From contig CP068257.2 in NCBI GenBank assembly GCA_009914755.4, positions 20,992,001 through 21,056,000 on the forward strand: 64,000 nucleotides of DNA, in the 5' to 3' direction. Both the position numbers and the translations under genes were made by a program. This document shows positions 45,309 to 45,920 of the stretch, piece by piece. The first letter of the stretch is position 1, and each line of letters starts with the position of its first letter. The notes under the pieces were generated by a model, which ran no database searches, was not told where the DNA came from, and saw only the letters and a list, made by a program, of their open reading frames with translations. The stretch comes from the human T2T-CHM13v2.0 reference genome, Homo sapiens.

Positions 45309-45596
45309 GGCTGTGTATCGTGACTCATGGCTGTCATCGCACTTGGGAGGCCACGGTGGGTGGATCACCTGAGGTCAGGAGTTCAAGACCAGCCTGACCA
45401 ACATAGAGAAACCCTGTCTCCAATAAAAATACAAAATTAGCTGGGCATGGTGGTGCATGCCTGTAATCCCAGCTATTCGGGAGGCTGAGGCAGAAGAATC
45501 ACTTGAACCTGGGAGGTGGAGGTGGCAGTGAGCCGAGATCGCACCATTGCACTCCAGCCTGGGCAACAAGAGTGAAACTCTGTTTCAAAAAAAAAT
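45309..45596 (+). mobile_element. Alu SINE, + orientation (TSD ~aactctc)
   Basis: ggctgtgtatcgtgactcatggctgtcatcgcacttgggaggccacggtgggtggatcacctgaggtcaggagttcaagaccagcctgaccaacatagagaaaccctgtctccaataaaaatacaaaattagctgggcatggtgg...ctgtttcaaaaaaaaa. aactctc lies at 45302-45308 and 45604-45610. Confidence 0.9.
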
Positions 45597-45624
45597 AGTC
45601 AACTCTCATTTAATATGTTGCCAC

Positions 45625-45920
45625 TTTTTTTTTTTTTTGAGACAGAGTATCCCTGGGTTGCCCAGGCTGGAGTGCAGTGGCACGATCTTGGGTCACTGAA
45701 ACTTTCACCTTGTGGGTTCAAGTGATTCTCCTGCCTTAGCCTCCTGAGTAGCTGGGCTTACAGGCGTGTGCCACCACACCCAGCTAGTTTTTGTATTTTT
45801 AGTAGAGATGGAGTTTCACCATGTTGGCCAGGCTGGTCTCAAACTCCTGATCTCAGGTGATCTGCCCACCTTGGCCTCTCAAAGTTCTGGGATTATAGGC
45901 GTGAGCCACCATGCCTGGCC
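45625..45920 (-). mobile_element. Alu SINE, minus orientation, tail-to-tail with the preceding Alu and 28 bp away (TSD ~atgtt(g/a)cc)
   Basis: The poly-T at 45625-45640 is followed by reverse-complement Alu ...gagacagagtatccctgggttgcccaggctggagtgcagtggcacgatcttgggtcactgaaac...ggattataggcgtgagccaccatgcctggcc. atatgttgccac lies at 45614-45625 and tatgttacctct at 45921-45932. Confidence 0.9.

What the first reader, a model, noticed from the sequence alone, without database searches (positions are those of the whole stretch)
45309..45920. Tail-to-tail inverted Alu pair separated by only 28 bp
A + strand Alu (45309-45596) and a minus-strand Alu (45625-45920) face each other through their A-tails with 28 bp between them. 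Each has its own short TSD (aactctc and atgtt(g/a)cc), so they are independent insertions that landed ~14 bp apart. Closely spaced inverted Alus form ~300-bp hairpins in DNA and RNA. Such pairs are reported to be depleted from the human genome because they stimulate recombination and deletion. When transcribed they are the main substrate of ADAR A-to-I editing.
Basis: partly seen in the sequence, partly recalled or inferred. Interest (0 to 1): 0.5.

Follow-up and report, generated by a model that had tools for sequence, protein, structure and literature searches.

The report
Ordinary old inverted Alu pair
Two ancient Alu retrotransposon copies sit tail-to-tail 29 bases apart after separate insertions; the structure is real but is a common, well-described kind of primate repeat arrangement, and this pair is too diverged to be a likely instability hotspot.

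Summary
There is a full-length + strand Alu at 45309-45595 (A9 tail) and a full-length - strand Alu at 45625-45920 (T14 on the + strand).

- **Alu identity:** all four monomers hit the 7SL/SRP RNA model. Both copies fit an AluS consensus best (about 86%).
- **Target-site duplications (TSDs):** each copy has its own. I extend them to 11/14 and 11/13 matches (P about 0.002-0.003 each). Both follow L1-endonuclease-like sites (TTAT|AAAA and TTTT|AAGA).
- **Independent insertion:** the two copies share no non-CpG substitution, so this is not a fold-back duplication.
- **Age:** non-CpG divergence is 7.0% and 7.3%, so both are similarly old, roughly 30-45 Myr.
- **Complementarity:** the arms are 80% complementary and the longest perfect block is 20 bp. 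As RNA the 612 nt fold into one hairpin (-437 kcal/mol, z = -36).

Published yeast and genome-survey data put the strong instability and depletion at spacers of about 24 bp or less and at high identity. This pair lies outside that class.

ADAR editing is plausible only if the region is transcribed. I could not establish that: I found no CpG island and no protein-domain hit in nearby ORFs.

Verdict: real, ordinary and already known in kind. Low interest.

The parts
45295..45308 (+). 5' target-site duplication of Alu1 (AAAACTTAACTCTC), preceded by TTAT
   Evidence: Read from the sequence. It matches 45594-45607 at 11/14 positions, resampling P = 0.0026.
45309..45586 (+). Alu1 body, full-length dimeric AluS-type SINE. 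Left monomer about 45309-45420, A-rich linker about 45421-45439, right monomer about 45440-45586.
   Evidence: 85.9% identity to the AluSx consensus over positions 1-282. Metazoa_SRP hits at 45310-45420 and 45440-45588. Non-CpG divergence 7.0%; 23 of 48 CpG-site bases changed.
45587..45595 (+). A9 tail of Alu1. The last two A may belong to the 3' TSD.
45594..45607 (+). 3' target-site duplication of Alu1 (AATAGTCAACTCTC)
   Evidence: The exact 7-mer AACTCTC is at 45601-45607 (fixes the coordinate).
45596..45624 (.). 29-nt spacer between the two tails, made of the Alu1 3' TSD, 6 nt of original target (ATTTAA) and the Alu2 TSD. It forms the hairpin loop.
   Evidence: The predicted loop is 13 nt in the + sense and 22 nt in the - sense after weak pairing within the spacer.
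45614..45626 (-). TSD copy next to the tail of Alu2 (+ strand TATGTTGCCACTT; in Alu2's own orientation AAGTGGCAACATA)
   Evidence: It matches 45921-45933 at 11/13 positions, P = 0.0019.
45625..45638 (-). A14 tail of Alu2, seen as T14 on the + strand
45639..45920 (-). Alu2 body, full-length dimeric AluS-type SINE on the - strand. Right monomer about 45639-45784, left monomer about 45803-45920.
   Evidence: 86.5% identity to the AluSx consensus with no gaps. Metazoa_SRP hits at 45637-45784 and 45803-45919 on the - strand. Non-CpG divergence 7.3%.
45921..45933 (-). TSD copy next to the head of Alu2 (+ strand TATGTTACCTCTT, followed by AAAA; in Alu2's orientation TTTT|AAGAGGTAACATA)

Best explanation
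**Origin.** Two AluS elements retrotransposed independently, by L1-driven target-primed reverse transcription, into two neighbouring L1-endonuclease-type sites of an AT-rich stretch. The sites are TTAT|AAAA on one strand and TTTT|AAGA on the other. This left the two elements tail-to-tail.

**Age.** Both are old, with about 7% non-CpG divergence. On ordinary primate neutral rates that is roughly 30-45 Myr; the figure is an inference.

**Current state.** They have decayed independently, mostly at CpGs, to 80% mutual complementarity.

**Behaviour as double-stranded DNA.** The pair is now a stable, effectively neutral relic. The 29-nt non-palindromic centre and the 20% mismatch make cruciform extrusion and hairpin-triggered breakage improbable (inferred from yeast data).

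**Behaviour as a single strand.** Any transcript running through it, on either strand, is predicted to fold into a duplex of about 245-265 bp with a small loop. That is the canonical substrate of ADAR A-to-I editing. Whether such a transcript exists here is not shown.
For: **Shown here**
- Full-length Alu architecture and 7SL relationship of both copies.
- A-tails facing each other across 29 nt.
- Separate, statistically supported TSDs, each preceded by a T-rich/A-rich L1-endonuclease-like junction.
- All 10 substitutions shared by the two copies are CpG transitions and none is non-CpG, so the similarity comes from the family consensus and not from one copy being duplicated.
- Equal non-CpG divergence, 7.0% and 7.3%.
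- Arm identity 80.1% and longest perfect block 20 bp.
- RNA minimum free energy (MFE) -437 kcal/mol with 263 arm-arm pairs (26 G-U) in the + sense, and -391 kcal/mol with 244 pairs in the - sense. Both are one long hairpin.
- No other opposite-strand Alu lies within 1 kb to compete for pairing.

**From papers**
- Spacer and divergence dependence of Alu-IR fragility (PMC10164571).
- Spacer dependence of the inverted:direct deficit (PMC3215922).
- About 7% of Alus lie in inverted pairs within 300 nt, split equally between head-to-head and tail-to-tail, so this arrangement is common (PMC5080714).
- The optimal editing substrate is two full Alus with a 10-50 nt loop (PMC526178).
Against: - Nothing contradicts the structural account.
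- The order of the two insertions cannot be resolved, because the TSDs do not overlap and the divergences are equal.
- When young, the pair would have been far more similar. It therefore passed through a period of higher predicted fragility and survived, which the 'neutral relic' account accepts but does not explain.
- The stability claim rests on yeast reporter data extrapolated to primate germline.
- Transcription, and therefore editing, is untested. The neighbourhood shows no CpG island and no Pfam-recognisable ORF, and CpG o/e is 0.18.
Confidence: 0.93

Rival explanations
1. The pair arose as one event, by fold-back or inverted duplication of a single Alu (a palindromic duplication), and not by two retrotranspositions.
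For: The arms are the same length and lie in mirror arrangement around a short centre.
Against: - Each copy has its own TSD pair with different sequence.
- The tails differ (A9 versus A14).
- All 10 shared differences from the consensus are CpG transitions, which recur independently. There are 0 shared non-CpG changes against 16 and 17 private ones.
- The spacer is not palindromic.
Confidence: 0.01
2. The pair is an active DNA fragile site: it extrudes a cruciform or hairpin and stimulates deletion or rearrangement. This is the instability reading implied by the first reader.
For: - The single-stranded DNA fold gives -222 kcal/mol, z = -34.
- Inverted Alus are under-represented at short spacing (PMC3215922).
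- In long single-stranded DNA, even 75-86% identical Alu-IRs interact efficiently in yeast (PMC10164571). This pair could therefore take part in fold-back rearrangements after extensive resection or replication stress.
Against: - The 29-nt asymmetric spacer, 80% identity and longest perfect block of 20 bp fall where yeast dsDNA assays show near-background activity.
- The extreme genome-wide deficit of inverted pairs applies at 24 bp or less.
- The inferred age of tens of Myr shows long persistence (inference).
Confidence: 0.04
3. The pair is a functionally exploited RNA element. One possibility is a dsRNA in a 3'UTR or lncRNA exon that governs nuclear retention, lowers expression, or is one of the few MDA5-stimulating duplexes that ADAR1 must edit. 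Another is a hairpin source of small RNAs.
For: - The predicted duplex is very stable and the loop is small.
- Small loop size is the one feature that distinguished immunogenic inverted Alus (PMC12695637).
- Inverted SINEs in 3'UTRs lower expression (PMC5080714).
- There are sub-threshold resemblances to miRNA families I recall to be Alu-derived, across the tails and arms.
Against: - Those miRNA hits are far below gathering scores (for example 31 versus 107 bits) and are expected for any Alu.
- Immunogenic dsRNAs lie mostly in UTRs or intergenic transcripts that reach the cytoplasm, not in introns.
- Here there is no evidence of an exon, promoter or CpG island. The setting is AT-rich, L1-rich and Alu-poor, which is typical of deep intron or intergenic DNA.
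Confidence: 0.02

Closest known systems
Alu SINE, AluS subfamily (7SL-derived dimeric primate retrotransposon mobilised by L1 ORF2p)
   Same: About 280-nt dimer of two 7SL-like monomers with an A-rich linker, a 3' A-tail, 13-14-bp TSDs at TTTT/A-type sites, and heavy CpG decay.
   Different: Nothing material. Alu1 has small deletions and a badly mutated first 30 nt covering the box A region, so it is very unlikely to be an active copy.
Closely spaced inverted Alu repeats shown to be fragile in yeast and depleted in the human genome (Lobachev 2000 and Stenger 2001 as summarised in PMC10164571 and PMC3215922; 'hairpin Alu pair exclusion')
   Same: Two full-length Alus in inverted orientation with a spacer well under 100 bp. 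It is the tail-to-tail type as defined in PMC3215922.
   Different: The spacer is 29 nt (not 24 or less) and arm identity is 80% with a 20-bp longest perfect block. The fragile class is defined by short spacers and high identity, so this pair belongs to the tolerated survivors.
IRAlu dsRNA substrates of ADAR1/ADAR2, for example the NICN1 3'UTR tail-to-tail AluSp pair (70-nt spacer, 81% identity; PMC5080714)
   Same: Same geometry and almost the same arm identity. The predicted duplex is about 260 bp with A:C mismatches (5 in the + sense, 11 in the - sense) and more than 100 paired adenosines.
   Different: For NICN1 and similar cases the pair is known to lie in a mature mRNA. Here transcription and editing are unknown, and the context shows no exon.

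Membership tests
Alu SINE (AluS) | About 280-300 nt dimer of two 7SL RNA-derived monomers joined by an A-rich linker, with the right monomer longer | tested here: met
   All four monomers hit Rfam Metazoa_SRP in the correct order and strand. Both copies align end-to-end to the 282-nt consensus.
Alu SINE (AluS) | 3' poly(A) tail | tested here: met
   A9 at 45587-45595. T14 at 45625-45638 on the + strand, which is the A14 tail of the - strand copy.
Alu SINE (AluS) | Flanking target-site duplications of about 7-20 bp at an L1-endonuclease-type site (TTTT/AA-like) | tested here: met
   11/14 and 11/13 matches, P = 0.0026 and 0.0019. The junctions are TTAT|AAAA and TTTT|AAGA.
Alu SINE (AluS) | Subfamily diagnostic positions (S rather than J or Y) | tested here: inconclusive
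   Identity is higher to AluSx (85.9% and 86.5%) than to AluY (81.8% and 82.5%) or AluJo (80.5% and 81.6%).
Alu SINE (AluS) | Intact internal Pol III A and B boxes (needed only for an active source copy) | tested here: inconclusive
   The first 30 nt of Alu1, which cover the box A region, carry many changes relative to the consensus. Alu2 has substitutions at the GTTCGAGAC segment. No promoter model was run.
Fragile or excluded inverted Alu pair (hairpin-type Alu pair exclusion) | Inverted orientation of two full-length Alus | tested here: met
Fragile or excluded inverted Alu pair (hairpin-type Alu pair exclusion) | Very short spacer. In yeast, going from 12 to 20 bp already costs about 40-fold. 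The genome-wide deficit is extreme at 24 bp or less. | tested here: not met
   The spacer is 29 nt between the tails and 52 nt between the Alu bodies. Thresholds are from PMC10164571 and PMC3215922.
Fragile or excluded inverted Alu pair (hairpin-type Alu pair exclusion) | High arm identity. Rearrangement rates fall about 58-fold at 86% and about 1087-fold at 75%. | tested here: not met
   80.1% identity with a longest perfect block of 20 bp.
ADAR-edited IRAlu dsRNA | Long, mostly paired intramolecular duplex between oppositely oriented Alus with a short loop | tested here: met
   263 arm-arm pairs, MFE -437 kcal/mol, z = -36, loop 13 nt in the + sense. 244 pairs and -391 kcal/mol in the - sense. 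PMC526178 names a 10-50 nt loop as optimal.
ADAR-edited IRAlu dsRNA | Both Alus lie in one Pol II transcript | not testable with these tools
   No annotated primate genome or RNA-seq is available here. Indirectly, there is no CpG island, and no Pfam hit in the eight ORFs tested between 37 and 48 kb.
ADAR-edited IRAlu dsRNA | Clustered A-to-G mismatches between RNA and genome | not testable with these tools
   This needs REDIportal, GTEx or other RNA-seq data.
Fold-back / palindromic duplication | Arms share private mutations and one common set of flanks | tested here: not met
   0 shared non-CpG changes, and separate TSDs for each arm.

The most novel reading that the evidence does not exclude
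The pair might lie in an exported transcript, such as an unusually long 3'UTR or a lncRNA exon. With its very small loop (13-29 nt) it would then belong to the small subset (about 1% of editing clusters in PMC12695637) of endogenous dsRNAs that activate MDA5 unless ADAR1 p150 edits them. Alternatively, it could act as a fold-back rearrangement substrate when the region becomes single-stranded.
Probability: 0.03. Interest if true: 0.35.

Novelty: already known. Interest (0 to 1): 0.1.

Why it matters
This pair matters little on its own. Inverted Alu pairs within 300 nt involve about 7% of all Alus (PMC5080714). Their roles as ADAR substrates, and at very short spacing and high identity as fragile sites, are textbook. 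The pair is a clean worked example of two independent TPRT events in an endonuclease-site-rich AT stretch, and of a survivor that has drifted out of the hazardous range. It would gain interest only if mapping showed it in a cytoplasmic transcript, where it could be an immunogenic dsRNA, or at a recurrent structural-variant breakpoint.

Tried and rejected
1. **Rfam at gathering thresholds over the whole window:** no match. At relaxed thresholds only 7SL and sub-threshold miRNA-family resemblances appeared. The miRNA-family hits are to families I recall to be Alu-derived, and I treat them as a side effect of Alu sequence, not as miRNA genes.
2. **Fold-back duplication origin:** rejected on separate TSDs and no shared non-CpG change.
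3. **Tandem repeats in 40-50 kb:** none.
4. **Gene context.** Pfam on ten ORFs: the eight between 37 and 48 kb gave nothing. Of the two L1-type ORFs used as controls, 58017-59000 hit L1 reverse transcriptase and 51857-52510 gave no hit. A CpG-island scan found only a young Alu.
5. **Large protein-database search, considered and not run.** I listed stop-to-stop ORFs of 40 aa or more: 653 in the window (39,160 aa) and 193 in the region from about 35 to 56.5 kb (11,385 aa). I decided not to spend the search on such a noisy concatenated query, because a negative result would not exclude UTR or lncRNA exons.
6. **Exact 22-mer of the spacer against metagenome contigs**, looking for host-derived copies or alternative alleles: no hit.
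7. **Lobachev 2000 (PMC313988):** not held. Its thresholds are cited second-hand from PMC10164571.
8. **Supplement of PMC3215922:** gave no per-spacer tail-to-tail counts.
9. **Flank comparison:** the immediate flanks (44500-45308 and 45921-46650) are single-copy within the window, so the host sequence of the two Alus was not identified as another repeat.

Full report
**1. Observation**

Reading 45100-46150 shows a + strand repeat that starts with GGCTGTG at 45309 and ends in an A9 run at 45587-45595. A T14 run follows at 45625-45638, and then the reverse complement of the same kind of repeat runs to ...CATGCCTGGCC at 45920. Between the two homopolymer runs lie 29 nt, TAGTCAACTCTCATTTAATATGTTGCCAC (45596-45624).

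The repeat finder reports inverted arms of 135, 94 and 25 nt at 82-88% complementarity. A gapped global alignment of Alu1 with the reverse complement of Alu2 gives 222 matches, 55 mismatches and 6 gap columns, or 80.1%.

**2. Are they Alus?**

No Rfam family reaches its gathering score anywhere in the window. In a relaxed scan of 45200-46000, the metazoan SRP (7SL) RNA model matches four segments in the order and orientation expected for two dimeric Alus:
- 45310-45420 (+), 24 bits
- 45440-45588 (+), 61.5 bits
- 45637-45784 (-), 39 bits
- 45803-45919 (-), 45 bits

The other relaxed hits are to miRNA families far below threshold. I recall those families to be Alu-derived, and I treat the hits as a by-product of Alu sequence.

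Both copies align end-to-end to a 282-nt Alu consensus. The best match is AluSx (85.9% and 86.5%), ahead of AluY (about 82%) and AluJo (about 81%).

The same consensus finds 15 Alu pieces in the window, covering 5.8% of its bases.

**3. Independent insertions**

They extend as follows:
- **Alu1:** AAAACTTAACTCTC (45295-45308) versus AATAGTCAACTCTC (45594-45607), 11/14, preceded by TTAT.
- **Alu2, in its own orientation:** AAGAGGTAACATA versus AAGTGGCAACATA, 11/13, preceded by TTTT.

Resampling 14-mers and 13-mers from the window with the same search freedom gives P = 0.0026 and 0.0019. A T-rich stretch followed by an A-rich TSD start is the signature of L1 endonuclease cleavage (established knowledge of target-primed reverse transcription).

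Removing both elements reconstructs an AT-rich empty site. In it the two target duplications are 6 bp apart (ATTTAA) and the two first-strand nicks are 33 bp apart on opposite strands.

Against the consensus, Alu1 has 16 non-CpG substitutions and Alu2 has 17. The 10 changes they share are all CpG transitions, which recur independently, and none is non-CpG. A fold-back duplication of one Alu is therefore excluded.

**4. Age and decay**

Non-CpG divergence is 7.0% for Alu1 and 7.3% for Alu2. Close to half of the CpG-site bases have mutated, 23 of 48 in Alu1 and 21 of 48 in Alu2, and almost all of those changes are transitions.

The equal values mean the order of insertion cannot be inferred. With commonly used primate neutral rates the age is of the order of 30-45 Myr. 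This is my inference and is not computed from orthologues.

**5. Structure-forming capacity**

As RNA, the 612 nt fold into a single long hairpin:
- **+ sense:** -437.1 kcal/mol, z = -36 against shuffles, 263 arm-arm pairs of which 26 are G-U, longest uninterrupted helix 29 bp, terminal loop 13 nt after weak pairing within the spacer.
- **- sense:** -391 kcal/mol, 244 pairs, 11 A:C single mismatches.

As single-stranded DNA the same hairpin is predicted at -222 kcal/mol, z = -34.

No other opposite-strand Alu lies within 1 kb. The nearest are the half-Alu at 44364-44499 (+) and the Alu at 41510-41792 (-). The adjacent partner is therefore the dominant pairing option.

**6. How unusual, and how dangerous?**

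Cook et al. (PMC3215922) counted 560,485 adjacent full-length Alu pairs:
- The inverted:direct ratio is 0.076 at spacers of 24 bp or less.
- At 24-36 bp the ratio is 1.053, because head-to-head pairs are elevated there. Tail-to-tail pairs are the rarer inverted type in that range.
- From 51 bp upward all four orientations are similar in frequency.

Tajaddod et al. (PMC5080714) found about 7% of Alus in inverted pairs within 300 nt, split equally between head-to-head and tail-to-tail. Their model case, the NICN1 3'UTR, is a tail-to-tail AluSp pair with a 70-nt spacer and 81% identity, almost the same parameters as here.

Ait Saada et al. (PMC10164571) summarise and extend the yeast data:
- Widening the spacer from 12 to 20 bp lowers Alu-IR recombination about 40-fold.
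- Widening it from 12 to 100 bp lowers recombination about 300-fold.
- Identity of 94%, 86% and 75% lowers rearrangement rates about 15-, 58- and 1087-fold.
- In duplex DNA, IR instability is completely lost at 75% identity.
- Only in long single-stranded DNA do diverged and distant repeats interact efficiently.

This pair has 80% identity, a 29-nt asymmetric centre and a longest perfect block of 20 bp. I therefore infer that it now sits near background for cruciform-driven breakage. It must have been more similar when young and nevertheless persisted.

**7. RNA level**

Athanasiadis et al. (PMC526178) describe the optimal editing substrate as two full-length Alus separated by a 10-50 nt loop, which is exactly this geometry.

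PMC12695637 reports that among edited inverted Alus, small loop size is the feature that marks MDA5-immunogenic duplexes. It also reports that those duplexes lie mostly in UTRs or intergenic transcripts that reach the cytoplasm, not in introns.

Whether this locus is transcribed at all could not be tested. Several indirect signs point to deep-intron or intergenic DNA:
- The window is 35% GC, with CpG o/e 0.18.
- It contains L1 ORF2 fragments.
- The only CpG-island-like stretch is a younger Alu at 33.0 kb.
- The eight ORFs tested between 37 and 48 kb have no Pfam hit.

An exact 22-mer of the spacer was not found in the metagenome collection. No related copies from elsewhere could be brought in, because the available collections are microbial.

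**8. Verdict**

The finding is a real and correctly described tail-to-tail pair of independently inserted AluS elements. It is a member of a very common and thoroughly studied class. By published criteria it falls outside the hazardous subclass, and its only plausible activity (dsRNA formation and ADAR editing) depends on transcription that is not demonstrated. Novelty: already known. Interest: low.

Noticed in passing
window 43291-44499: An Alu is split in two: 43291-43438 and 44364-44499, both on the + strand. The 925-bp insert (43439-44363) begins TG, ends CA and is flanked by a 4-bp duplication, GTGG. Removing the insert and one GTGG restores the Alu consensus. It looks like a solo LTR that landed in an older Alu. 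The LTR family was not identified.
   Followed up: partly
window 36195-36967 and 46652-47393: Two copies of one dispersed repeat lie in inverted orientation, 81% identical over 773 nt and about 9.7 kb apart. A further 42-nt match links 47354-47395 with 38130-38171. The copy at 36-38 kb lies in a region whose ORF translations look like MaLR/THE1-type LTR-element sequence. That resemblance is from memory and was not tested.
   Followed up: no
window 58017-59000 (-), 51857-52510 (+), 23739-24086 (+): These are L1 ORF2 fragments. The 327-aa ORF at 58017-59000 hits Pfam RVT_1 (E = 1.8e-39). The other two ORFs share one near-identical ORF2 C-terminal peptide. The window is L1-rich and Alu-poor.
   Followed up: partly
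window 32634-32918 and 33001-33289: A direct pair of AluY-like copies with an 82-bp spacer. The first is the least diverged Alu in the window (91.6% to AluY). The second is the only stretch of the window that passes naive CpG-island criteria.
   Followed up: no
window about 16220-16900: A long dinucleotide-type simple repeat, seen as overlapping ORFs on both strands that translate to CVCV, THTH and YIYI runs.
   Followed up: no
window 45158-45174: A long T run sits 135 bp upstream of Alu1. It could be the tail of an older minus-strand retroposed element. No matching repeat was found within the window.
   Followed up: no
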